Assembly: GCA_030602345.1 (NCBI GenBank)
Contig: JAUVZX010000001.1
Coordinates: 1,668-65,667, forward strand
DNA length: 64,000 nt
Direction: 5' to 3'
DNA from: Bacilli bacterium
GTDB taxonomy: Bacteria > Bacillota_I > Bacilli_A > RF39 > UBA660
Of this stretch, positions 1,424 to 51,576 are shown in pieces. The stretch's first letter is position 1. Every line of letters begins with the position of its first letter. The translations under genes and the position numbers were made by a program. The notes beneath the pieces are model-generated. The model was not told where the DNA came from. It made no database searches and saw nothing but the letters and a program-made list of their open reading frames with translations.

Positions 1424-1679
1424 AATTCACCCGCAAACTATTTATATTATACTATACTAGGCTTTTATAAACAACAAAAAAACCCAGAAAAGCGACGCCA
1501 AAACGATAAAACCTGATCTTCCAGGGGGATGACTTTTTATACCATTAGGATCCTCAACTAAATGAGTGTTCAACACAAGTATAAGTTGAAGTCTTCCAAT
1601 CGTTACTACTTAGCGATTTTCATATATGACAATCGTCTTTTCTAGGTTAATTTAATTTTACCACTTATTAATATAATAT

Positions 1680-31310: not shown

Positions 31311-31384
31311 TGGTGCCGGATAACAGAGTTGAACTGTTCACTGACCCTTACCATGGGTCTGTTATGCCCCTTAACTAATCCGGC
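31311..31384 (-). tRNA. tRNA-Thr (anticodon GGT)
   Basis: Manual cloverleaf: acceptor GCCGGAT/ATCCGGC, anticodon stem GACCC/GGGTC, loop ATGGTAA, T arm AACAG-TTCAACT-CTGTT, discriminator A, then CCA. 74 nt. Confidence 0.85.
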
Positions 31385-31390
31385 AAATAG

Positions 31391-31467
31391 TGGCGTCCCC
31401 GATTGGATTTGAACCAACGCTCTAACCCTTAGGAGGGGCTTGTTTTATCCAGCTAAACTACGGGGAC
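31391..31467 (-). tRNA. tRNA-Arg (anticodon CCT)
   Basis: Manual cloverleaf: acceptor GTCCCCG/CGGGGAC, D stem GTTT/AAAC, anticodon stem AGCCC/GGGTT, loop CTCCTAA, T loop TTCAAAT, then GCCA. 77 nt. Confidence 0.85.
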
Positions 31468-33139: not shown

Positions 33140-33225
33140 TGGTGCGAGAGACGGGACTTGAACCCGCATAGCATTACACCACAAGCCCCTCAAGCTTGCG
33201 CGTCTACCAATTTCGCCACCCTCGC
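33140..33225 (-). tRNA. tRNA-Leu (anticodon GAG), long variable arm
   Basis: Manual fold: acceptor GCGAGGG/CTCTCGC, anticodon stem CAAGC/GCTTG, loop TTGAGGG, extended variable arm, T arm CGGGTTCAAGTCCCG, then ACCA. 86 nt. Confidence 0.85.
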
Positions 33226-41617: not shown

Positions 41618-43252
41618 TTATACCTCTTGAATTGTAACTAATATTATTGGATTTCTTTCTGTTTCTTGGAATAAGAATTTACTTAGTTTTTCTCTAATTA
41701 AATTTCTTACTTTAGTAAAATCAATGGTCTTATCTTTAGTATTATCAACTAATACTTCTTTAGACATCTCTACTATTTTTTCTAATAGTTCTCTACTTTC
41801 TTTAACAAAAACGAATCCTCTAGTTAAAACTTCTGGTCCTGCAACAATTGATTTATCGGATTTCTTAATTGTTATATTAACTAAGACAATCCCATTTTCA
41901 CTTAATGCTGCACGATCATGTAAAACAGCACTTCCAATATCTTCGCTCGTTTTACCATCGATTAATATTTGATCAGTTTTATAAATTGTTTTCGATTCTT
42001 GTAATTTACCATTAACAAATGTAACTACTTCACCATTTTGTTTTAATAAAACATTTTCTTCTTTTAAACCAATTTGATATGCTAAATTAGCATTAGCAAC
42101 TTGGTGACGATATTCCCCAATAACAGGGAAATAATATTTAGGATTCATTAAATTAATCATTAATAATAAATCTTCAGAAGATGCATGATACTCTAAATGT
42201 TTCTTACTTGAAACAATTACTAAATTAACATTTATTTTTGCTAAATCGTCTAATAAATCAGCAGCAGTCTTTTCAAGTCCATCATAAACTGGAGAAGCAA
42301 ATACAACCGTATCTTCAGAAGTTACTTTAATAAAACGATCTTGTCCTTTTGCAATTCTAATCATGTTAGAAAATGGTTTTTCTCTTTCATCAGAAATTAT
42401 AACAATTGCATTATTACTAATATCGTGAATTGATCCTATTTTATTTTTATCTAAATCAATATGTTTATTATCAATTGCATATAAGATTAAAGCTTCTAAA
42501 GCTCTTCCCATGATAACTATTTTTCGCTCATCATATTTTAAAGCATTAAATAACTCTTGCATTCTATATAATTCACCTTGCTGAATATTAACTAAAATAC
42601 GACCTGTATTTTTATTAATTGTTTCAGAAAATAAACTATAAATACGATGATTAGGAGAAGTAAATCCTCTTTTATCAGCATATAAAGACTCACTCAATAA
42701 ACAAAGAACACCTTGTTTACCAATATAAGCTAATTTACCAATATCAGCTTTATAACTACCAATCATAGTTGAATCAACTACAAAGTTACTAGTATATACA
42801 ATCGCACCATCTTTAGTATTTAAAACAAATCCTACTGCCTCTGGCACCGAATGCGAAAGAGCAATTGGAAATATACTGTTTTCTTCAAAATCAATCTTAA
42901 CATGAGGTTTAATCTCATTTAAATTGTATTTTTTAGAATCTAATTCTGTTTTTAAAACTTCTAAAGTAAATTTAGTAGCATATATAGGAACTTCTGGATA
43001 ATCACTTAAAATATCAAATGTAGCACCAATATGCTCATCATGACCATGACTTAAAAAGATACCTTTTATATTTTTAAGGTTTTTACCAATAAAGTCATAA
43101 TTAGGTAATATATAATCTATTCCGAATAAACGATCATCTGGATACTTTAAACCAGCATCAAAAATAAATATATCTTCATTAACTTTAACTACATACATAT
43201 TTTTACCATTTTCGTTTAATCCACCTAGAGCAAAAATTTCTATTTTATTCAT
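41618..43252 (-). CDS. rnj: Ribonuclease J
   Basis: 544 aa, metallo-beta-lactamase motif LSHGHDEHIG, beta-CASP and C-terminal domain. Extended -10 TGGTATAAT and RBS AAAGGAGG upstream. Confidence 0.85.
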   Translation of the reverse strand: MNKIEIFALGGLNENGKNMYVVKVNEDIFIFDAGLKYPDDRLFGIDYILPNYDFIGKNLKNIKGIFLSHGHDEHIGATFDILSDYPEVPIYATKFTLEVLKTELDSKKYNLNEIKPHVKIDFEENSIFPIALSHSVPEAVGFVLNTKDGAIVYTSNFVVDSTMIGSYKADIGKLAYIGKQGVLCLLSESLYADKRGFTSPNHRIYSLFSETINKNTGRILVNIQQGELYRMQELFNALKYDERKIVIMGRALEALILYAIDNKHIDLDKNKIGSIHDISNNAIVIISDEREKPFSNMIRIAKGQDRFIKVTSEDTVVFASPVYDGLEKTAADLLDDLAKINVNLVIVSSKKHLEYHASSEDLLLMINLMNPKYYFPVIGEYRHQVANANLAYQIGLKEENVLLKQNGEVVTFVNGKLQESKTIYKTDQILIDGKTSEDIGSAVLHDRAALSENGIVLVNITIKKSDKSIVAGPEVLTRGFVFVKESRELLEKIVEMSKEVLVDNTKDKTIDFTKVRNLIREKLSKFLFQETERNPIILVTIQEV

Positions 43253-43338
43253 ATTTTCCTCCTTTCTTTTTTTGACTAACCAATTATACCAAAAAAAAGA
43301 ATATTAGTCCATAAATATAAAGACTAACATCAATATTA

Positions 43339-44826
43339 AATATTGTATAGCAAAAATTCTTAGAGTACCAAAACAAAAGAAAACGAAACAGTTAAATACT
43401 ATGAGTTATTGTATAGCAAAAATTCTTAGAGTACCAAAACATTCTTCCAACATATCTAAGGTTGGTGTGTGTTATTGTATAGCAAAAATTCTTAGAGTAC
43501 CAAAACTTACTTTCAAAATCATTACCATCTTTATTTGTTATTGTATAGCAAAAATTCTTAGAGTACCAAAACTGATAAGTCAAACATTCCGTCAAATGAC
43601 TGGTTATTGTATAGCAAAAATTCTTAGAGTACCAAAACACTTGCCTTTTTGTGTATAATTCATTAAAGGTTATTGTATAGCAAAAATTCTTAGAGTACCA
43701 AAACAAATTGCTAATGGTTCGGTTTTGCCTATCGGTTATTGTATAACAAAAATTCTTAGAGTACCAAAACTCTCCATTTAAAATAAAGGGATATATTATA
43801 GTTATTGTATAGCAAAAATTCTTAGAGTACCAAAACTTAACGAAGGTGGTTTATTTCCAACTAATGGTTATTGTATAGCAAAAATTCTTAGAGTACCAAA
43901 ACCAAATCTACGCTCTAATAAATAGTCAAAGTGTTATTGTATAGCAAAAATTCTTAGAGTACCAAAACCTTGCTTTAGTATCATACTTAGGCGCTAAAGT
44001 TATTGTATAGCAAAAATTCTTAGAGTACCAAAACATCTATTAATCATTGGTCTAGTTCTCCAAAGTTATTGTATAGCAAAAATTCTTAGAGTACCAAAAC
44101 CCTCTTGACCTTGATAGTTATCAAAAGGATGTTATTGTATAGCAAAAATTCTTAGAGTACCAAAACAGTGGCACACTTATGGGAAAAGATTTATTTGTTA
44201 TTGTATAGCAAAAATTCTTAGAGTACCAAAACCCTCATTATTTAATTATTTTAAACAAATGCGTTATTGTATAGCAAAAATTCTTAGAGTACCAAAACCT
44301 TGGATCTTTAACAGCATTGTCATTTATTGTTATTGTATAGCAAAAATTCTTAGAGTACCAAAACCGGTAGCATTAGGATATCACAATTTGAAAAGTTATT
44401 GTATAGCAAAAATTCTTAGAGTACCAAAACTTAATTCACATATATTTGTAAATATATTATGTTATTGTATAGCAAAAATTCTTAGAGTACCAAAACGATG
44501 AACAACCTGAGTTATATGCTAGATATGTTATTGTATAGCAAAAATTCTTAGAGTACCAAAACGACGATTAAGCAATATTCAAGAGTTTACTGGTTATTGT
44601 ATAGCAAAAATTCTTAGAGTACCAAAACGTAGACCGTTAAAGTTTAAATCGGTTGAAGGTTATTGTATAGCAAAAATTCTTAGAGTACCAAAACAATGTT
44701 TGCCCTCCTTAATTATTTCTTGTAGTTATTGTATAGCAAAAATTCTTAGAGTACCAAAACCAACAGACACATCAACGAATCGAGCTGCATGTTATTGTAT
44801 AGCAAAAATTCTTAGAGTACCAAAAC
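43339..44826 (-). CRISPR. Type II-A CRISPR array: 23 repeats of 36 nt (GTTTTGGTACTCTAAGAATTTTTGCTATACAATAAC in the transcribed orientation) and 22 spacers of 30 nt
   Basis: I enumerated the repeats by hand. All spacers are exactly 30 nt. The leader-distal repeat (43339-43374) carries 2 substitutions. The repeat at 43735-43770 carries one G-to-A variant. Leader and cas genes lie on the high-coordinate side, so transcription is on the minus strand. Confidence 0.97.
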
Positions 44827-44886
44827 CTCAAACTTATTTTATCATATTGATGATATATTGTCATCTAAGTTTGATTTTTAAAGTGT
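44827..44886 (-). promoter_or_regulatory. CRISPR leader with putative promoter (-35 TGACAA, 16-bp spacer, -10 TAAAAT) about 12 nt upstream of the first repeat
   Basis: 60-bp AT-rich segment between the csn2 stop and the newest repeat. Hexamers read on the minus strand. Confidence 0.45.
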
Positions 44887-45729
44887 TTATAAGTTTTTTT
44901 CTAGCGACATTATTCTATCATTTGAATCTCCAATTATATACTGAGAAATCAGTTTTTTTAATTCTTCTATTTCACAGTGAAAGGGAAGATTCATTCCTAT
45001 TTCATAATTTAAGTTATATTCATCGTAAACATCAATTATTTTATTATTATAAATACAATAATCCTTCATGTCAGATGGAGTGTGATTAGTTTCAGTGGAA
45101 ACAAAAACTTTAATATTTTCATTTTCCAAAAAATTTATAGCATTTATAATTTTAGGTGTTAAAGAGCCAATGTATGTAATAAAAATATTTTTGTCAGTTG
45201 TTAAAGACAGTTTTTCGATTAGATTCAGTTGGAATATTATTAAATCATCATATTCTAAGTCATATATATTACATTCTAAACCCATTTTTTTCATTTTACA
45301 TTTAAGCATTTTATATAATTCTAATATATCTATTTCATTAAATGATAAGTTTAATTTTAATTCTTCAGATAAAATAATATTTTTATTGTAATTTGACGTT
45401 TCTTTGGTTAAAACATCACTGATATTTAACATTTCTTCATCTTCAGAATTTTCTAAATATTTTAGCAGAAGCGTTTTAGCCCCTAATTTTATTTCATTTT
45501 CTATGTTAAAATATGGGTTTAAAATAAAGGATAAAGTGTTTCTACTATTTATTTTTTGTTCATTTAAATAAATTGATTCTACTCCTTCTCTTAATGAAAA
45601 TTCACTAAAATCCGAGTTTGAACATATTTGATGAATTTTTTGAAAAACTGAAAACATTTTTGTTCCGTTTTTTTCAAAAAAAATTTTTTTCTTATCTATA
45701 GAGAAGGATAATTCATTATTACCCTTCAT
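44887..45729 (-). CDS. csn2: Csn2-family CRISPR-associated protein (type II-A marker)
   Basis: 280 aa, directly between cas2 and the leader. Local similarity to Csn2 (EYDDLIIFQLNLIEKL and IFITYIGSL resemble the S. pyogenes Csn2 EYDEITILELIKALG and LLIFVNSGAF segments). Confidence 0.6.
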   Translation of the reverse strand: MKGNNELSFSIDKKKIFFEKNGTKMFSVFQKIHQICSNSDFSEFSLREGVESIYLNEQKINSRNTLSFILNPYFNIENEIKLGAKTLLLKYLENSEDEEMLNISDVLTKETSNYNKNIILSEELKLNLSFNEIDILELYKMLKCKMKKMGLECNIYDLEYDDLIIFQLNLIEKLSLTTDKNIFITYIGSLTPKIINAINFLENENIKVFVSTETNHTPSDMKDYCIYNNKIIDVYDEYNLNYEIGMNLPFHCEIEELKKLISQYIIGDSNDRIMSLEKNL

Positions 45730-45760
45730 ATATACAAATTTGTCTATTTTATTTCCTCCT

Positions 45761-46096
45761 TTAAAATAACATAAATGGGTTAGGTGTAATTTTTTCTTCT
45801 AGTTTGCTTTTATTTCCAACTAAAATTTCCATTCTGGTATATTGCTTTTCAGTAACTAACATTATTCTTATAGATCCTTTTTTAGGAACAAAATTTTTCA
45901 AAGTTGATATATGTTTCTGAGCAGAGTCTCTATTTGAAAATATTTTAGAATAAACAGAATATTGAATCATCATATATCCGCTTTTTATTAATCTTTTTCT
46001 AAATAGACTATATATTCTTCTTTCTTCCTCAGTTACGACAGGTAAATCAAAAAATAATATTATTCTCATAAAAACATCATTCATAAATTTTAACAC
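45761..46096 (-). CDS. cas2: CRISPR-associated endoribonuclease Cas2
   Basis: About 100-aa Cas2 (MRIILFFDLPVVTEEERRIY...). The true start is probably at 46069 (MRIIL); the track's form overlaps the cas1 end. Confidence 0.85.
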   Translation of the reverse strand: MLKFMNDVFMRIILFFDLPVVTEEERRIYSLFRKRLIKSGYMMIQYSVYSKIFSNRDSAQKHISTLKNFVPKKGSIRIMLVTEKQYTRMEILVGNKSKLEEKITPNPFMLF

Positions 46097-46970
46097 CAGG
46101 AAATTTTATTTCATCAATATTTCCTGTTTCAAAAAAACTAATTATACTATCAACCATTATTATAATAGCGTTATTAATTGTATGTATCTTTCCATCAATC
46201 ATGACCTTTTTAGTTGTTTGAGCTACTAGTTCAACCCTAATATTCCTCGTGAAAACATCATTTATTTTTAAATTTTTTAATACATACTGATCAACAATAG
46301 GCCTAAAAACTTCAATAACGTCATCAGCTAAGTTGAAAGGGTTTGAAGGTCCTCTATGAAAAATCCCGAAATGTGGGTTTAATCCTCTAGCCACTAAAGC
46401 TCTACATATTTGAGATCTCAAGATACTATAGCCATAATTTAATGCTGAATTTCTTACATCATCAGATTTTCTTAAGAAATCATCACCAAATAATTCTCTG
46501 AAATATATTTTTGCAGCTAGTCCTTCCCTATTTGTTTTGTCATTAAGTTCAACTTCTTGATAATATTTATCTAAAATTGAAATATACTCTGGATTAGCAT
46601 CAAAATATTCCATTACATTTTTTTGGTTTTTAATTTTAGCCTTTACAATTTCTTGCCAAATATACATTTTGCTATTTTCTTCCCATTCTAATTGTTTGCG
46701 AAGTTGAAAAGATGAATTATAATTACCAGAATAAGGAAATATTAATGCTGATGGTAAATGAAAAGGATCACAAATAACAATGTTAATATTATATTCCATA
46801 CACTTGCTTATTAAAGATGCTGACATAACTAAACTATGATTATCGATTATAATAGAATTTACGTCACTCAAAGGAATAGTTATTTTTTCTATTCCCTTTG
46901 TTATTTTCAAATTATCTAAATATAAATTTAAATAATCTGAACTTTCAATATAAATTATTCTCCAACTCAT
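46077..46970 (-). CDS. cas1: CRISPR-associated endonuclease Cas1 (type II)
   Basis: 297 aa with NSALNYGYSIL and GLNPHFGIFHRG motifs. Confidence 0.9.
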   Translation of the reverse strand: MSWRIIYIESSDYLNLYLDNLKITKGIEKITIPLSDVNSIIIDNHSLVMSASLISKCMEYNINIVICDPFHLPSALIFPYSGNYNSSFQLRKQLEWEENSKMYIWQEIVKAKIKNQKNVMEYFDANPEYISILDKYYQEVELNDKTNREGLAAKIYFRELFGDDFLRKSDDVRNSALNYGYSILRSQICRALVARGLNPHFGIFHRGPSNPFNLADDVIEVFRPIVDQYVLKNLKINDVFTRNIRVELVAQTTKKVMIDGKIHTINNAIIIMVDSIISFFETGNIDEIKFPGVKIYE

Positions 46971-47075
46971 AAAAACAAAAAGAGACTCTAAAGAGTCTCG
47001 ATTTCGGCATATTGCCTTATTTTGATAGTTCCTAAGAACTTTTGCTATACAGTAGTCCGTCGACTACAAAATAAT
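46971..47075 (-). ncRNA. tracrRNA (anti-repeat, nexus and terminator) between cas9 and cas1
   Basis: On the minus strand, UGUAUAGCAAAAGUUCUUAGG is complementary to crRNA repeat nt 11-31 (21 bp including 2 G-U pairs). UCAAAAU pairs with repeat nt 1-7, forming the lower stem after an internal bulge. There is a nexus-like AAGGCAAUAUGCC hairpin. The terminator is GAGACUCUUUAGAGUCUC followed by UUUUUGUUUUU. Confidence 0.7.
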
Positions 47076-47104
47076 TATAACATTTTTCGTTAAAATAATC
47101 AAGT

Positions 47105-50100
47105 CTAATTTAATAGTAATTTAGGTTCATTTTCAAAAGGAAGTTTATACATATTTCCCAATACATCAAAAGCCATTTTTTGAATATTAATGTTTTTCTT
47201 TATATTTATATATGGTTGTGGTTGAACTTTACCATTTTTATAAACTTTTTTCTCATTTGGGATTTTGTATGAAATGATATTAGATTCCAAGTTTTGAACT
47301 CCTGAATACAAAACTACTCCTTTATAGGTTGACTCTTCTACTTTTCCTACAAATAAAGGTTCATTTTTGTACACACTAAACAAGAATTTACAATTATTAT
47401 TGATCCCTCTTTTTTGCAACATGTCTTTATAATCATTTTCGTCAATATAATATTTTCCGTCTTTGTTTTTAATTTCATGTTGATAGATTTGAATTATTAT
47501 ATTTTCATTTGTTTCGTTTCTATATATGTCTATTCTATAGGGATTTAAAGATAGTAACACTACTTTATTTTCAGTATTATATTTATGACTAATGTCTAAA
47601 TGGTTTCCAAGTTTACTTTCATAATATTTAACTGTCTCTATTTTTGGACCATTTCCTTTTTTAGATTTTTTTCTTATAAAATCTCCATGCTTTAATTTAT
47701 ATTCTAAAAAGGGATTTTCAGCATACGAATATTCTTGTGTTATTTTTTTTAATAAATTAAAACTTTCGACATCGTATTTAAACATAAACAAATTTTTTAG
47801 TTTATCTAAATTGTCTTCTTTAAACCAATTAGCAACAGCATTATCATCATATATATTTTTTTTCGATATTATATATTCTTTTTGATCTTCCGGCTTGATT
47901 CTAACACTATATATAGTTTGATCACTCAAACCTTTGTTAAATTTTTTATCGACTTTCTGAGAAAATTTTACATTTAATTTATCTAAATTATTAATGAAAT
48001 TTAAATATTGACTATCATTTTTAATTTTGATATCTTCTGGTTTTATTATTTCACCAGTTTCGTCATTTACTAAAAGCTTATCTACTCTCGATATTTTTAT
48101 TAAATCATCGAAGAAGTTAAGTTTTTTAATTCCCGCAATCAACAAAGCATCTATAGCGTGATGAGAATTGTCTTCTTCTCTTACTTTCGGAAGATTACTT
48201 TGTTTCCTAAAATAATTAGTAACTATTCCTTTAATCGTATAGACTTTTGTATCAATATTATTTTGGTTATAATATTCAGAAAGTAAATTTAAAATATTTC
48301 TTGAGGCATATCGAGTATCTACTAAATTTCTATTAATAAAATCTTTTCTAACGCTAAATTTATTTATATCCGATTCATTTAAATAATTTTTCATCTTTCG
48401 ATAGTCTATTTTGCCATTTTTATTTAAGTTTATAACTCTATTTTTAAATTGATCATATTTACCAATTTTACTTAAATATTGATATGGGCTTTTTTGACCT
48501 TTTTCTTGATTTTCCTCTCTATAAACTAGGCATTTATTTTTGAAAGAATCATCTAAAGATATAGAAAGAGGTATTATATGATCTATTTCATATATATATG
48601 GATTTTCAATTAAATCATTTAAGTTTATTGATTTGCCAGAGTATATACAAACACCGTCTTGCTCTAAATATAATCTTACTTTTTGTTTGATTTCAATATT
48701 AATTTTCCCTTTATATTTTTTACTTATTTCATCTAGAACTTGTAAATTTATCTCTTCATTATTTTTTTGAAGTTTATTTATTCGGTTTTTTTGTTCTAAA
48801 CTATTCTTATCTCTAGGCATTTCTATTACTATACTATCTAATTCACCATATTTTTTTCTTACTGCATTAATTATTTTAATGGTTTCATTTTGAGATCTCC
48901 TCACAACGGGAGATAATACATCTTCAATATTAGAAGGTATAGTTTTACCAATAACGTCCTTATTTAATTGTTTATAGCCATTTAGGCTGATGATTTGCAT
49001 TTGGTTGTTATTTGTTTCAAGTAAATCCGGAAGCATCTCATAAATCGCTCTAAACGACAAAGAATGATATGTAGAAAATCCATTTAAAGTTGAAATTCTT
49101 TCTATGACATTTTGATCGAAGATTTTTATATCTATATTTTTTATTTTTTTAATAGCTTCTATTCTTTCATTTTGACCTTTTTTCATAGTCAATATCTCTG
49201 AGATTTCATCTATTATTTTTTTGTCATTTAATATTTTTTCGCTAAACCCTTCTTTTTTCACTAAATCAATAAAAACTTTATATCCATCAAACTCTGTTAA
49301 TATGGGCTCACTCTTTTTATTTAATCTAAAGCCAGATATTTCTTCTAAAGGCAAATCTAAAAACTTAGCAAGCTCTTTGGGAGTTATTTTTGCTTTTTTA
49401 TCTATAAAATTATAAATTATTTCTTCTTTTTGATTTTGAGAAAGCTGTTGATCTCCGTCAAACTTCAAATTATTTAGATCATTTAAAAAATTAAAAAGCT
49501 GTGCTGAATAAGATTTTTGAGGTGCTCTTTTTTCTTCTAAATATATAGAACATTTCCCTCTCATTTTTTCAATCAAATCGATGGGTTCTGCACCTATATA
49601 AGCATATCTTCCGTAAGGAGTTGGAGAATTAGGACCACCAGGTCCTTCATAATATTTTCTTTTTCTTTTTACTATTTCGATTATTTCTTCTGTCAATTCA
49701 TTAGAAATTTCATTTGTTAAACATAATTGTTTTATTTCTTTTATATAATCATCTGTAGTAAAAATATTTTGATTTCCTTTTAATTTTCCATCATTTAATC
49801 TCTTTAATTGCAGTTCACACACAAAATAATTATTTTGTGATAAATATTTTTGGTTTTCCGATAATGATTTTTTAGAAGTTTCGCTATCTTTTATCTCTTG
49901 TTCATTTTCAGGAATTATATCACTATCTACCAATCCTCTTTTTTTAGTAATATGTAATATGCAATTTGCAAACTCGTTATTATTAAGTTTGTGTTTTAAG
50001 CCTCTTGTTCTTAATTCATATATGTTTTTAGAATATTGAAATTCTTCATCAATATATCCATTTCTTTTCAACAAGTCTTTCATCGCTTCTATTCGAGTTC

Positions 50101-50281
50101 TTTTTCTTCTAATTAACCTTCTTCCAGAACGAAAGCCTCTTCTTTCTTCATTGTTTTTTGCGGTTCCCTCTTCAAAAAGTCTAACTCCACAGTCTACTAC
50201 TTCAGATGTTTCAAGATCGATCAATCCCCATCCAACAGATGCAATTCCAACGTCCAAACCAAGCACTAATTTTTTCTGCAT
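47105..50281 (-). CDS. cas9: CRISPR-associated endonuclease Cas9, compact type II-A ortholog (1058 aa, SaCas9-like)
   Basis: RuvC-I LGLDVGIASVGWGL, arginine-rich bridge helix, HNH (DIDHIIPLSISLDDSFKNK), RuvC-III HHAIDALLIA. The N-terminus aligns closely with Staphylococcus aureus Cas9. Promoter TATAAT and RBS GGAGG lie in the 50282-50323 interval. Confidence 0.95.
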   Translation of the reverse strand: MQKKLVLGLDVGIASVGWGLIDLETSEVVDCGVRLFEEGTAKNNEERRGFRSGRRLIRRKRTRIEAMKDLLKRNGYIDEEFQYSKNIYELRTRGLKHKLNNNEFANCILHITKKRGLVDSDIIPENEQEIKDSETSKKSLSENQKYLSQNNYFVCELQLKRLNDGKLKGNQNIFTTDDYIKEIKQLCLTNEISNELTEEIIEIVKRKRKYYEGPGGPNSPTPYGRYAYIGAEPIDLIEKMRGKCSIYLEEKRAPQKSYSAQLFNFLNDLNNLKFDGDQQLSQNQKEEIIYNFIDKKAKITPKELAKFLDLPLEEISGFRLNKKSEPILTEFDGYKVFIDLVKKEGFSEKILNDKKIIDEISEILTMKKGQNERIEAIKKIKNIDIKIFDQNVIERISTLNGFSTYHSLSFRAIYEMLPDLLETNNNQMQIISLNGYKQLNKDVIGKTIPSNIEDVLSPVVRRSQNETIKIINAVRKKYGELDSIVIEMPRDKNSLEQKNRINKLQKNNEEINLQVLDEISKKYKGKINIEIKQKVRLYLEQDGVCIYSGKSINLNDLIENPYIYEIDHIIPLSISLDDSFKNKCLVYREENQEKGQKSPYQYLSKIGKYDQFKNRVINLNKNGKIDYRKMKNYLNESDINKFSVRKDFINRNLVDTRYASRNILNLLSEYYNQNNIDTKVYTIKGIVTNYFRKQSNLPKVREEDNSHHAIDALLIAGIKKLNFFDDLIKISRVDKLLVNDETGEIIKPEDIKIKNDSQYLNFINNLDKLNVKFSQKVDKKFNKGLSDQTIYSVRIKPEDQKEYIISKKNIYDDNAVANWFKEDNLDKLKNLFMFKYDVESFNLLKKITQEYSYAENPFLEYKLKHGDFIRKKSKKGNGPKIETVKYYESKLGNHLDISHKYNTENKVVLLSLNPYRIDIYRNETNENIIIQIYQHEIKNKDGKYYIDENDYKDMLQKRGINNNCKFLFSVYKNEPLFVGKVEESTYKGVVLYSGVQNLESNIISYKIPNEKKVYKNGKVQPQPYINIKKNINIQKMAFDVLGNMYKLPFENEPKLLLN

Positions 50282-50323
50282 AAAACCTCCATTTTTTATT
50301 AATTATACACGAAAAATAACATT

Positions 50324-50346
50324 AAAAAAAGAGAATATTAATTCTC
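50324..50346 (-). terminator. Rho-independent terminator of tig, overlapping its stop codon, separating tig from cas9
   Basis: GAGAAT-ATTA-ATTCTC hairpin followed by a run of 7 T on the minus strand. Confidence 0.5.
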
Positions 50347-51576
50347 TTTTATTATTTCTAATGCACGTCTTAATTGCATATCATATTTTAAAGTGTCTAA
50401 TCCTCCGAATAATTCTAAGAATTTAGCTTCTTCCATGTTATATTTTTCTGCCATAGTTTTAGCTTCTTTTTGAACTTCTTCTTCAGTTACTTCTATTTTT
50501 TCTGCTTTTACAATTTCATCTAATAACAAACGATATCTAACGCGGTTTGTTGCTTCAGGTTTCATTTGTGTTTCTAATTGTTCTTCAGTTGTATTTGTAA
50601 ATTGATAGTATTGTTCTAAAGTAACACCTTGTAGTTTTAAATTATCTTCATATTGGTGCATCATTCTATGAATTTCTGATGAAATCATAGCATCTGGAAT
50701 AATTACTTCCATATTATCTGCTGCTTTTGCTAATAATTGTTCTACATATTGGTTTTCTACTTCTACTTCTTTTCTAGCTTTGATATTTTCTTTTAATGCT
50801 GCCACTAAAGAGTCAACATCATTAACACCTTCCATAGCTAAGTCTTCAAAAAATTGTTCATCTAATTCTGGATGAAGTTGTGCTGTAACTTCATGTACTT
50901 TAATCTTAAATACTACTTTTTGTCCTTTTAATTCTTCACTTGGATATTCTTCAGGGAATGTTACTTCGATATCTTTCTCATCACCTTTTTTAAGTCCAAC
51001 TAATTGTTCTTCAAAACCTGGAATAAAACTTTGACTTCCTAATTGTAAGTCATATTTTTCAGCTTTTCCGCCTTCAAACGCTACTCCATCTTTAAATCCT
51101 TCAAAATCAATTGTCACTACATCATGGAACTCTGCTGGGCCTTCTTTAACAACACTTTCTTCAAAACGATGTTGTAACATGTGTATTTCATCATGAACTT
51201 CTTCATCAGTTACTTCTACACTTGGTTTAGCAATTCCTAATTTTTTATATTTTCCTAATTTAACTTCAGGTGCAGTTATCAATTCAATTGTAAATTCGAA
51301 TGATTCTAATGTTAAGTTTCCTAATTTAACTTGTGGTTCTGCTACAATATTAATATCTTTGTTTTCTTGTAATGTTTTAACATATACTTCATTCATAGCA
51401 ATATCTGCAGCATCCATTAATAAAGATTCTTTTCCATATTTTTTCATGAATACATCTTTTGGGGCATGTCCTGGTCTAAAACCATCAATTGTTACTTTTT
51501 TATTTGCTCTTTCAAAAGCTTTATCAATAGCAGTTTCCCACTCTTGACCTTCTATTTTAAATTTAAATTCTCTCAT
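50338..51576 (-). CDS. tig: Trigger factor
   Basis: 412 aa, N-terminal ribosome-binding domain, FKBP-type PPIase middle, C-terminal arm. Confidence 0.85.
   Translation of the reverse strand: MREFKFKIEGQEWETAIDKAFERANKKVTIDGFRPGHAPKDVFMKKYGKESLLMDAADIAMNEVYVKTLQENKDINIVAEPQVKLGNLTLESFEFTIELITAPEVKLGKYKKLGIAKPSVEVTDEEVHDEIHMLQHRFEESVVKEGPAEFHDVVTIDFEGFKDGVAFEGGKAEKYDLQLGSQSFIPGFEEQLVGLKKGDEKDIEVTFPEEYPSEELKGQKVVFKIKVHEVTAQLHPELDEQFFEDLAMEGVNDVDSLVAALKENIKARKEVEVENQYVEQLLAKAADNMEVIIPDAMISSEIHRMMHQYEDNLKLQGVTLEQYYQFTNTTEEQLETQMKPEATNRVRYRLLLDEIVKAEKIEVTEEEVQKEAKTMAEKYNMEEAKFLELFGGLDTLKYDMQLRRALEIIKEN

What the first reader, a model, noticed from the sequence alone, without database searches (positions are those of the whole stretch)
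43339..50281. Complete type II-A CRISPR-Cas locus with a compact 1058-aa SaCas9-like Cas9, inserted between tig and rnj
The locus reads cas9-tracr-cas1-cas2-csn2-leader-array on the minus strand. All catalytic motifs are intact: RuvC I and III, and HNH. There are 22 spacers of uniform 30-nt length. Repeat orientation matches cas gene orientation. The array has the expected degenerate terminal repeat and a plausible leader promoter. Cas9 is at the small end of the II-A size range. Its N-terminus is close to S. aureus Cas9, which makes it a candidate compact editor with a possibly distinct PAM. The locus sits in a housekeeping context (tig upstream, rnj downstream) where clpX usually follows tig.
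Basis: partly seen in the sequence, partly recalled or inferred. Interest (0 to 1): 0.6.

Follow-up and report, generated by a model that had tools for sequence, protein, structure and literature searches.

The report
Intact compact Cas9 CRISPR locus
This is a real, complete and apparently working type II-A CRISPR-Cas9 immune system in an uncultured low-GC Bacilli bacterium; it is an ordinary new member of the well-known SaCas9/St1Cas9 group, and spacer matches to one phage point to an A-rich recognition motif (NNAYAAW).

Summary
On the minus strand the order is tig, cas9 (1058 aa), tracrRNA, cas1, cas2, csn2, a 60-nt leader, then 23 repeats of 36 nt with 22 spacers of 30 nt, then rnj. All seven Cas9 catalytic residues are present. 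The fourth gene has no Pfam or NCBIfam hit, but PADLOC profiles and a confident structure model identify it as Csn2. The tracrRNA is supported by repeat pairing, its own promoter and terminator, and compensatory base changes across related loci.

Five of the 22 spacers match one phage with 0 or 1 mismatch. All five protospacers are followed by NNAYAAW. That motif resembles the S. thermophilus CRISPR1 Cas9 (St1Cas9) motifs, not the SaCas9 motif NNGRRT.

Cas9 is 40% identical to SaCas9. Its nearest database relative is 61% identical.

"Inserted between tig and rnj" is correct as a location. Four related contigs have tig directly next to rnj. A more distant relative carries a homologous cas9 at the same site, about as diverged as the flanking genes. 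The locus is therefore probably old there rather than a recent insertion, and it is not decaying.

Verdict: a new member of a known kind, of modest interest.

The parts
50338..51576 (-). tig (trigger factor), the upstream housekeeping neighbour. Its terminator hairpin and T-run (about 50324-50347) are retained and mark the left junction.
   Evidence: Pfam Trigger_N, FKBP_C and Trigger_C. The junction was compared with the empty sites in L002 and L003.
43317..50322 (-). The whole 7.0-kb CRISPR-Cas segment that is absent from the empty-site relatives. It sits exactly between the tig terminator and the rnj promoter.
   Evidence: L002, L003, L004 and L005 have tig and rnj 78-82 bp apart. The sequence on both sides of the junction aligns with the window.
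47105..50281 (-). cas9, 1058 aa, preceded by its own -10-like TATAAT (about 50302-50307) and a GGAGG ribosome-binding site.
   Evidence: TIGR01865 E=7e-190. Pfam HNH_4, RuvC_III, Cas9_RuvC, WED and PI2. Best PDB matches are SaCas9 (584 bits) and St1Cas9 (531 bits). Catalytic residues are present. The promoter and ribosome-binding site were read from the sequence.
47074..47102 (-). tracrRNA promoter: TTGATT, 17 nt, TATAAT, with TG before the -10.
   Evidence: Consensus scan, 10 of 12 matches. A -10 element sits at the same place in L006, L007 and L061-L066.
46977..47067 (-). tracrRNA, about 91 nt. It has a 5' hairpin (47067-47052), an anti-repeat (47051-47019: 21-bp upper stem, AAC bulge, 9-bp lower stem), a nexus hairpin GGC..GCC (47016-47006) and a terminator hairpin (46999-46982) followed by a T-run.
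   Evidence: Repeat duplex of -34.8 kcal/mol. Terminator found by scan. A repeat-GAAA-tracr fusion folds at -48.7 kcal/mol, z=-10.2. Across 7 loci, 16 of 16 pairs are 100% paired, 7 pairs show changes on both sides, and 0 of 500 shuffles reach this.
46077..46970 (-). cas1 (297 aa)
   Evidence: TIGR03639, type II Cas1, E=1e-90.
45761..46096 (-). cas2. It is 111 aa from the GTG start, or 107 aa from the ATG at 46084 used in the Logan gene call.
   Evidence: TIGR01573 E=2e-24. Gene call in L001.
44887..45729 (-). csn2, a divergent member of the roughly 290-aa subfamily (280 aa here).
   Evidence: PADLOC Csn2 profiles, E=4e-33 and 4e-31, full length. 139 homologs at 21-43% identity. 5 of 65 family members hit Pfam Cas_St_Csn2. 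AlphaFold2 model pLDDT 91.4. Foldseek top hits are 3zth (Stu0660, E=6e-9) and 3s5u (Csn2, E=2e-5).
44827..44886 (-). 60-nt leader with a promoter (ATGACA, 17 nt, TAAAAT, TG-extended, 44864-44836). It ends in GTTTGAG directly before the first repeat.
   Evidence: Consensus scan. The leader end matches the Group 1 II-A motif ATTTGAG/GTTT in 6 of 7 positions (PMC5382924). L007 has ATTTGAG exactly.
43339..44826 (-). CRISPR array: 23 repeats of 36 nt and 22 spacers of 30 nt. Spacers 7, 8, 9, 14 and 19, counted from the leader, match one phage.
   Evidence: for the array; for the protospacers.
41618..43252 (-). rnj (RNase J), the downstream housekeeping neighbour. Its promoter (43283-43311) is conserved in the empty-site relatives and marks the right junction.
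   Evidence: Pfam RNase_J_C, beta-CASP and Lactamase_B. Promoter scan. Junction alignment.

Best explanation
This is a functional type II-A CRISPR-Cas adaptive immune system of the compact SaCas9/St1Cas9 clade, in an uncultured low-GC (27.6%) Bacilli bacterium.

Mechanism: the leader promoter transcribes the array. The roughly 91-nt tracrRNA, made from its own promoter between cas9 and cas1, pairs with each repeat (9-bp lower stem, bulge, 21-bp upper stem). Host RNase III and Cas9 mature the crRNAs. Cas9 then cuts DNA that matches the spacer and is followed on the non-target strand by 5'-NNAYAAW-3', using its RuvC and HNH sites. Cas1, Cas2, Csn2 and Cas9 insert new spacers at the GAG|GTTT leader-repeat junction.

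Shown here: the parts, the intact catalytic residues, the RNA pairing with covariation, the Csn2 fold, and five spacers matching one siphovirus-like phage with a shared 3' motif.

Inferred from established type II-A biology: transcription, RNase III processing, cleavage and acquisition.

The locus occupies the tig-rnj intergenic site, which is variable in this lineage, and has probably been there for a long time.
For: The gene set and order are complete, with strong profile matches. Catalytic residues D10, E487, H708, D711, D567, H568 and N591 are present and conserved.

Csn2 is confirmed by profile, by family link and by fold.

The array is regular, with 21 of 23 repeats identical.

The tracrRNA has a strong duplex with the repeat, a promoter and terminator, the standard guide-RNA fold with z=-10.2, and compensatory changes across 7 loci with 0 of 500 shuffles reaching the observed values.

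Spacers 7 and 14 match phage contigs perfectly, and spacers 8, 9 and 19 match with 1 mismatch. Reversed-spacer controls gave 0 hits in 568 kb.

All five 3' flanks fit NNAYAAW. The motif occurs at 1.58% of positions in those contigs, so five of five has P of about 1e-9. In a permutation of total flank information, 16 of 20,000 random sets reached the observed score. Two variants of the same phage carry C or T at PAM position 4.

The repeat start GTTTTGG does not fit the PAM, so the array is not self-targeted. The leader end matches the Group 1 II-A motif.
Against: There is no expression, processing or cleavage data. All five protospacers come from one phage, so they are not independent of its 33.7% GC composition. 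The PAM motif was defined after seeing the flanks, and positions 7-8 and the C/T choice at position 4 rest on five sites. Seventeen spacers have no match. An RNase III gene was not looked for. The mismatch in the spacer 8 target lies 6 nt from the PAM, so that target may escape.
Confidence: 0.87

Rival explanations
1. The locus is a recent horizontal insertion into the tig-rnj spacer.
For: The closest relative (L002 and L003; flanking proteins 88-89% identical, RNase J 91%) and two more distant ones (L004, L005) have tig directly followed by rnj. The junctions are clean, at the tig terminator and the rnj promoter. None of 80 loci from reference genomes with related Cas9 (47% identity or less) lies next to tig.
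Against: L006 has flanking proteins only 59-61% identical to the window's, yet carries cas9, cas1 and cas2 at the same place after tig, with 61.6%, 64% and 74% identity. The cas genes are therefore as diverged as the flanks. The flank-identity tree is ((window+, L002-), (L006+, (L004-, L005-))), which needs two gains at one site or two losses. The cas genes have 22-27% GC against 27.6% for the window, so there is no compositional sign of recent arrival. No transposase, integrase or target-site duplication is present at the junctions.
Confidence: 0.25
2. The locus is an ancestral remnant that no longer works (decaying).
For: It appears to be old at this site. Seventeen of 22 spacers have no known target. 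The Csn2 is very divergent: the word-index search found only itself and the sequence search of the PDB found nothing.
Against: All four genes are full-length with conserved catalytic residues. 21 of 23 repeats are identical. tracrRNA pairing, promoter and terminator are intact. Two spacers match a present-day phage perfectly and three more with one mismatch, all with one shared PAM, which indicates recent PAM-selective acquisition.
Confidence: 0.06
3. The NNAYAAW motif is a by-product of AT-rich phage sequence, and the true PAM is different or shorter (for example NNA only, or SaCas9-like).
For: There are only five sites, all from one 33.7% GC phage, and the motif was defined after the fact. 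The St1Cas9 PAM-reading loop (Q1084/K1086) falls in a stretch with no counterpart in this protein, so the PAM cannot be confirmed from residues.
Against: A is invariant at positions 3, 5 and 6, Y at position 4 and W at position 7 in all five sites. The 5' flanks and positions 1, 2 and 9-12 show no pattern. Chance expectation is 1.58% per site, and the permutation gave 16 of 20,000. None of the five flanks fits NNGRRT. The PI domain is closer to St1Cas9 (E=2e-27) than to SaCas9 (E=2e-20).
Confidence: 0.2

Closest known systems
Staphylococcus aureus type II-A Cas9 (SaCas9, 1053 aa; PDB 5AXW, 5CZZ, 8ZCY)
   Same: It is the best overall sequence match among solved structures (E about 1e-173, aligned end to end). 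It has the same size class, the same domain order (RuvC, REC, HNH, WED, PI), and the same catalytic residues at aligned positions. The repeat start GTTTT.GTACTCT and the nexus AAGGCA.(A)ATGCCG resemble the SaCas9 guide scaffold; this last point is from my own recollection of the Sa sgRNA and was not tested here.
   Different: Identity is only 40.0% over 844 aligned columns. The PI domain is less similar to SaCas9 than to St1Cas9. The inferred PAM is NNAYAAW, not NNGRRT. This Csn2 belongs to a roughly 290-aa subfamily.
Streptococcus thermophilus CRISPR1 system (St1Cas9, 1121 aa; PDB 6RJD, 6M0V), with strain PAMs NNAGAAW, NNACAA(W) and NNGYAA(A)
   Same: It is the second-best Cas9 match (E=5e-158) and the best match for the last 214 residues (E=2e-27). 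It has an A-rich PAM at positions 3-7; the CNRZ1066 PAM NNACAA(W) is a subset of NNAYAAW (PMC6961573). It shares the Group 1 leader end ATTTGAG/GTTT (PMC5382924) and 36-nt repeats with 30-nt spacers. The Csn2 fold is closest to S. thermophilus Stu0660.
   Different: This Cas9 is about 60 residues shorter. The St1 loop that carries the PAM-reading residues Q1084 and K1086 has no aligned counterpart, so the same kind of PAM would be read by different residues. Csn2 is 280 aa against 347 aa, with about 10% identity in the structural alignment.
Uncultured-Bacilli, Acholeplasmataceae and Erysipelotrichaceae compact type II-A loci (for example L006, L007, L061-L069)
   Same: They have the same order cas9-tracr-cas1-cas2-csn2-array, the same tracrRNA position and modules including a 5' hairpin, a near-identical anti-repeat core, and the same Csn2 subfamily.
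   Different: Cas9 identity is 61% at most (L006), then 51% (L007), and 47% or less in reference genomes. Only L006 shares the tig-adjacent site.

Membership tests
Type II-A CRISPR-Cas | Cas9 effector with RuvC-like and HNH nuclease domains | tested here: met
   TIGR01865 scores 634 bits against a cutoff of 100. Pfam HNH_4, RuvC_III and Cas9_RuvC match. D10, E487, H708, D711, D567, H568 and N591 are present.
Type II-A CRISPR-Cas | cas1 and cas2 adaptation genes next to cas9 | tested here: met
   TIGR03639 (type II Cas1) scores 303 bits against a cutoff of 120. TIGR01573 (Cas2) scores 86 bits against a cutoff of 24.5.
Type II-A CRISPR-Cas | csn2 as the fourth gene, the II-A signature that separates it from II-B (cas4) and II-C (no fourth gene) | tested here: met
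   There is no Pfam or NCBIfam hit. PADLOC Csn2 profiles match at E=4e-33 over 265 of 279 profile positions. The AlphaFold2 model (pLDDT 91.4) has the Csn2 structures 3zth and 3s5u as its only two significant Foldseek PDB hits. 5 of 65 homologs hit PF16813.
Type II-A CRISPR-Cas | tracrRNA with an anti-repeat complementary to the CRISPR repeat | tested here: met
   The duplex is -34.8 kcal/mol and unique in the region. It has a promoter and a terminator. Covariation across 7 loci supports it. It does not match the Rfam tracrRNA model, which did not appear among the matches.
Type II-A CRISPR-Cas | CRISPR array with a 36-nt repeat, 30-nt spacers, and a leader on the cas side | tested here: met
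   for the array. The leader end GTTTGAG|GTTT compares with the Group 1 motif.
Type II-A CRISPR-Cas | DNA interference that depends on a 3' PAM | tested here: inconclusive
   Five protospacers share the 3' motif NNAYAAW. Cleavage itself cannot be tested with these tools.
SaCas9 orthologue group (usable with SaCas9 guides and PAM) | High identity to SaCas9, including the PI domain, and an NNGRRT PAM | tested here: not met
   Identity is 40.0%. The PI domain is closer to St1Cas9. None of the five protospacer flanks fits NNGRRT.
St1Cas9-type A-rich PAM readers | A PAM of the form NN[A/G]NAA(W) read by PI-loop residues Q/R1084 and K/I1086 | tested here: inconclusive
   The PAM form is met, because NNAYAAW includes NNACAAW. 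The PAM-reading loop has no aligned counterpart in this protein.
Rfam tracrRNA and CRISPR-DR families | A match to a curated covariance model | tested here: not met
   No match at gathering score in the window. At E up to 1 in 43250-47200, the only hit is a chance-level match to Atu_C8 (23 bits against a gathering score of 50).

The most novel reading that the evidence does not exclude
This Cas9 would be a compact (1058 aa) nuclease on a SaCas9-like scaffold that reads an St1-like A-rich PAM (NNAYAAW) through a PI loop not alignable to either solved relative. That would make it an orthogonal small editor with a new PAM-reading solution. In addition, the conserved, covarying 5'-terminal hairpin on the primary tracrRNA of this clade would be a previously undescribed functional module, for example protection of the tracrRNA 5' end from RNase J-type 5' exonuclease before processing.
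Probability: 0.3. Interest if true: 0.45.

Novelty: new member of a known kind. Interest (0 to 1): 0.3.

Why it matters
Biologically this is a textbook type II-A system. Its value is as a well-documented example from an uncultured low-GC Bacilli lineage. It comes with a host-phage link (five spacers against one phage found in IMG/VR and JGI metagenomes), an inferred PAM, a defined tracrRNA, and a clean presence/absence polymorphism at a housekeeping site.

Practically, a 1058-aa Cas9 only 40% identical to SaCas9, with an A-rich NNAYAAW PAM, could add a small AAV-sized nuclease that is probably orthogonal to existing ones. However, St1Cas9 strain variants already cover NNACAA-type PAMs, and many compact orthologues have been catalogued, so the gain is incremental.

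Tried and rejected
(1) A single-protein scan of reference genomes with Cas9 found no relative. The exact Cas9 and tig proteins are not on record in the contig index, so the organism could not be named beyond 'Bacilli bacterium'-type MAG.

(2) BLAST of the whole array against GenBank phages and PLSDB plasmids gave only chance-level hits, with E of 0.1 or more.

(3) Exact 20-mers of spacers 1, 3 and 4, and a merged pattern for spacers 5 and 21, found nothing in IMG/VR. Re-scanning IMG/VR with the spacer 19 and spacer 7 protospacers returned only contigs already held, so the phage genome could not be extended.

(4) No spacer matches the window itself.

(5) The word-index homology search of Csn2 found only itself, and the sequence search of the PDB found nothing. 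The full HMMER scan and the fold comparison were needed.

(6) Rfam has no matching tracrRNA or repeat family.

(7) L001, a Logan assembly of the same genome with 0 mismatches over 9.8 kb, shows a single repeat between csn2 and rnj. I rejected this as evidence of a strain without an array, because it is an assembler collapse of the repeats.

(8) I considered predicting the PAM from the PI residues of SaCas9 or St1Cas9. I rejected this because the St1Cas9 PAM-reading loop does not align.

(9) The promoter-like TTGGTA-18-TACAAT inside every repeat matches only 9 of 12 consensus positions, in an AT-rich sequence where such matches are common (72 found against 52 expected). It is not taken as evidence of repeat-internal promoters.

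Full report
**1. What is in the sequence**

Between 43339 and 50281, on the minus strand, there is a complete CRISPR-Cas locus.

- **Array.** TRF and the repeat finder report a 66-nt period over 43341-44826. An exact parse gives 23 copies of the 36-nt repeat GTTTTGGTACTCTAAGAATTTTTGCTATACAATAAC and 22 spacers, every one 30 nt. Of the 23 repeats, 21 are identical, repeat 17 has one substitution, and the last repeat (43339-43374) differs in its final two bases.
- **Genes.** Upstream lie four ORFs.
  - The 1058-aa ORF (47105-50281) matches the Cas9 equivalog TIGR01865 at E=7e-190 and carries the Pfam HNH_4, RuvC_III, Cas9_RuvC, WED and PI2 domains.
  - The 297-aa ORF matches type II Cas1 (TIGR03639, E=1e-90).
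  - The 111-aa ORF matches Cas2.
  - The 280-aa ORF has no Pfam or NCBIfam hit. It matches two PADLOC Csn2 profiles almost end to end (E=4e-33 and 4e-31).
- **Flanks.** The flanking genes are trigger factor (50338-51576) and RNase J (41618-43252). GreA and two U32 peptidases lie further upstream, and a MiaB-like radical-SAM enzyme lies downstream.
- **Window.** The window is 27.6% GC. Almost all ORFs of 120 aa or more are on the minus strand and are unbroken under genetic code 11.

**2. Cas9**

Against solved structures, the best matches are SaCas9 entries (8zcy, 5axw and others; E about 1e-172 to 1e-174, aligned over residues 1-1056). St1Cas9 follows (6rj9, 6m0v; E about 1e-157 to 1e-158).

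Counting the printed alignment gives 40.0% identity to SaCas9 over 844 aligned columns.

In an alignment of 25 homologs, E487, D567, H568, N591, H708 and D711 are invariant and D10 is at least 90% conserved. All seven are present in the window protein. They align with SaCas9 E477, D556/H557, N580 and H701/D704; the SaCas9 numbering is from my own knowledge.

The last 214 residues (WED end plus PI domain) are closer to St1Cas9 (E=2e-27) than to SaCas9 (E=2e-20). The St1Cas9 loop carrying Q1084 and K1086, which reads PAM positions 3 and 4 (PMC6961573), falls in a stretch with no counterpart in this protein.

In the 5.8-billion-protein collection, the exact sequence is present once, from NCBI and Logan. 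The next relatives are 61%, 51% and 49% identical. Reference genomes hold nothing above 47%; these are mostly uncultured Bacilli, Acholeplasmataceae and Erysipelotrichaceae.

**3. Csn2**

Two searches failed: the word-index search found only the protein itself, and a sequence search of the PDB found nothing.

A full HMMER scan of 1.84 billion representatives found 139 relatives, mostly 280-300 aa and 21-43% identical. Five of the 65 relatives scanned match Pfam PF16813, Cas_St_Csn2.

An AlphaFold2 model built on that alignment is confident (mean pLDDT 91.4, pTM 0.86). Its only two significant Foldseek hits in the PDB are Csn2 structures: 3zth (Stu0660 of S. thermophilus; E=5.8e-9, TM 0.64) and 3s5u (a chain described only as 'CRISPR associated protein', which from my own knowledge is a Csn2 structure; E=1.7e-5).

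The fourth gene is therefore Csn2, and the locus is subtype II-A.

**4. tracrRNA**

- **Pairing with the repeat.** I scanned 42-52 kb on both strands for the best duplex with the repeat. A single outstanding site lies in the 134-nt cas9-cas1 spacer on the minus strand, at -34.8 kcal/mol. Everything else is -23 or weaker.
- **Modules.** The pairing gives a 9-bp lower stem, a bulge (C in the repeat, AAC in the tracrRNA) and a 21-bp upper stem. A nexus hairpin (GGC-AATAT-GCC) follows. Then comes the only terminator-like hairpin found in the whole 7.2-kb region (GAGACTC-TTTA-GAGTCTC plus a T-run, 46999-46982).
- **Promoter.** A promoter (TTGATT, 17 nt, TATAAT, with TG) sits at 47102-47074. This places the start near 47067.
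- **Fold.** A repeat-GAAA-tracr fusion folds into exactly this architecture at -48.7 kcal/mol, z=-10.2.
- **Conservation.** The same element sits between cas9 and cas1 in L006, L007, L061-L069 and others.
- **Covariation.** On a 7-locus alignment, all 16 base pairs of three helices (5' hairpin, nexus, terminator) are paired in every sequence. Seven pairs show changes on both sides. No shuffle of 500 reaches the observed values, and sliding the partners drops pairing to 33-44%.
- **Rfam.** No Rfam family matches.

**5. Leader**

The 60-nt leader carries a TG-extended -10 promoter (44864-44836). It ends GTTTGAG directly before GTTTTGG.

This is the Group 1 type II-A leader-end motif ATTTGAG/GTTT in 6 of 7 positions. 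The motif has been described for S. thermophilus CRISPR1 and shown to be needed for spacer integration (PMC5382924). L007 has ATTTGAG exactly.

**6. Targets and PAM**

Several searches found no targets. BLAST of the array against GenBank phages and PLSDB plasmids gave only chance-level hits. No spacer matches the window itself. The first IMG/VR scans were also empty.

A degenerate pattern covering spacers 8 and 22 then hit two IMG/VR contigs that are 97% identical to each other. I fetched relatives of that phage by its capsid-region and portal proteins and scanned all loci locally. This gave five protospacers on one phage, with a composite of about 14.5 kb and 33.7% GC. The phage encodes terminase, portal and minor head protein genes.

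| Spacer | Mismatches | 3' flank |
|---|---|---|
| 7 | 0 | GTACAAAT (GTATAAAT in a variant contig) |
| 8 | 1 | CGACAATT |
| 9 | 1 | ATATAATT |
| 14 | 0 | AAATAAAA |
| 19 | 1 | CCACAATT |

Both phage strands are targeted. Reversed spacers gave no hit with up to 6 mismatches in 568 kb.

The flanks agree on NNAYAAW, while the 5' flanks and positions 1, 2 and 9-12 show no pattern. The motif occurs at 1.58% of positions in these contigs, so five of five has a probability of about 1e-9. A permutation that scores total flank information, and so allows for after-the-fact motif choice, was reached by 16 of 20,000 random sets.

This is not the SaCas9 motif. It lies within the A-rich range known for St1Cas9 strain variants: NNAGAAW, NNACAA(W) and NNGYAA(A) (PMC6961573).

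The repeat start GTTTTGG does not fit the motif, so the array is protected from itself.

Perfect and near-perfect matches with one shared PAM argue that acquisition was active recently. In II-A systems acquisition uses Cas9 to select the PAM, which is established knowledge.

**7. Genomic context and history**

- **Empty sites.** RNase J relatives lead to four contigs in which tig is followed directly by rnj, 78-82 bp apart. These are L002 and L003 (RNase J 91% identical; tig, GreA and U32 88-90%) and L004 and L005 (62-69%).
- **Junctions.** The junction sequences align with the window on both sides. The 7.0-kb segment (about 43317-50322) sits exactly between the tig terminator T-run and the -35 of the rnj promoter. 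There is no duplication and no mobility gene. In this lineage the native neighbour of tig is therefore rnj, not clpX.
- **A relative with the locus at the same site.** L006 carries the closest Cas9 (61.6%). It has cas9-tracr-cas1-cas2 directly after tig, with the same upstream gene order. Its tig, GreA and U32 are 59-61% identical to the window's, which is the same divergence as Cas9 (61.6%), Cas1 (64%) and Cas2 (74%).
- **Tree.** Flank identities group the contigs as ((window, L002), (L006, (L004, L005))), with the locus present, absent, present, absent, absent.
- **Reading.** Two losses and two gains at the same site are equally parsimonious. The equal divergence of cas and flanking genes, and the cas GC of 22-27%, favour long residence with losses or allele exchange through the conserved flanks.
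- **Other loci.** L007 (51%) and 80 reference-genome loci are elsewhere in their genomes.
- **Same genome in another assembly.** L001 is the same genome from a Logan assembly, with the array collapsed to one repeat by the assembler.

**8. Verdict**

The system is a new member of the compact SaCas9/St1Cas9 branch of type II-A.

- the fourth gene is verified as Csn2;
- the tracrRNA is defined and supported by covariation;
- there is a host-phage link with an inferred NNAYAAW PAM;
- the locus is probably old at a variable tig-rnj site rather than a recent insertion.

Nothing here departs from known type II-A biology, so interest is modest.

Noticed in passing
window 47052-47067 (-); the same position in L006, L007, L061-L069, L079, L082, L096, L113 and L120: The primary tracrRNA starts with a 6-bp hairpin (GTAGTC-GACG-GACTAC) just upstream of the anti-repeat. 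Its structure, not its sequence, is kept across loci: 3 of 6 pairs show compensatory changes among the close loci, and different hairpins sit at the same place in distant ones. It would be removed by RNase III processing. It may be a 5'-end stabiliser, but its function is unknown.
   Followed up: partly
window 43339-44826 (-), inside every repeat: Each repeat contains a weak promoter-like match (TTGGTA, 18 nt, TACAAT; 9 of 12), and its 3' end reads TGCTATACAAT. This recalls the repeat-internal promoters of some type II-C arrays. The match is weak and the region is AT-rich, so it may be chance.
   Followed up: no
L001 9819-10000 (Logan assembly of SRR14872665) compared with window 43253-44886: The same genome in a Logan assembly (0 mismatches over 9.8 kb) shows only one hybrid repeat between csn2 and rnj. 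The assembler collapsed the 22-spacer array. This is a caution for array surveys based on such assemblies.
   Followed up: yes
L008/L016, L009/L010/L060, L017/L141 and L053 (IMG/VR 3300014206_000617, 3300028603_000934, 3300028603_001271; JGI Ga0172377, Ga0265293, Ga0265294): These are fragments of one phage of about 34% GC (terminase, portal, minor head protein) targeted by five spacers, which links this phage to the window's uncultured Bacilli host. The spacer 8 target has its single mismatch 6 nt from the PAM, so it may be an escape change. Two contig variants differ (C or T) at PAM position 4 of the spacer 7 target.
   Followed up: partly
window 1477-1651 (-): 6S RNA (Rfam RF00013, 48.8 bits, just above the gathering score of 46.4).
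   Followed up: no
window 31311-31467 and 33140-33225 (-): tRNA-Thr(GGT), tRNA-Arg(CCT) and tRNA-Leu(GAG). Nearly all ORFs of 120 aa or more in the 64-kb window are on the minus strand, a strong strand bias typical of low-GC Bacillota.
   Followed up: no
L007 19193-20209: A reverse-transcriptase (RVT_1) gene lies about 5 kb downstream of the related II-A locus in L007. It was not examined for any link to the CRISPR locus.
   Followed up: no
L063, L073, L086, L090 and L107 (record titles): Several contigs carrying this Bacilli-type Cas9 are binned as Muribaculaceae, Bacteroidaceae, Segatella copri or Candidatus Moranbacteria. This probably reflects mis-binning of short CRISPR contigs rather than real cross-phylum transfer.
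   Followed up: no
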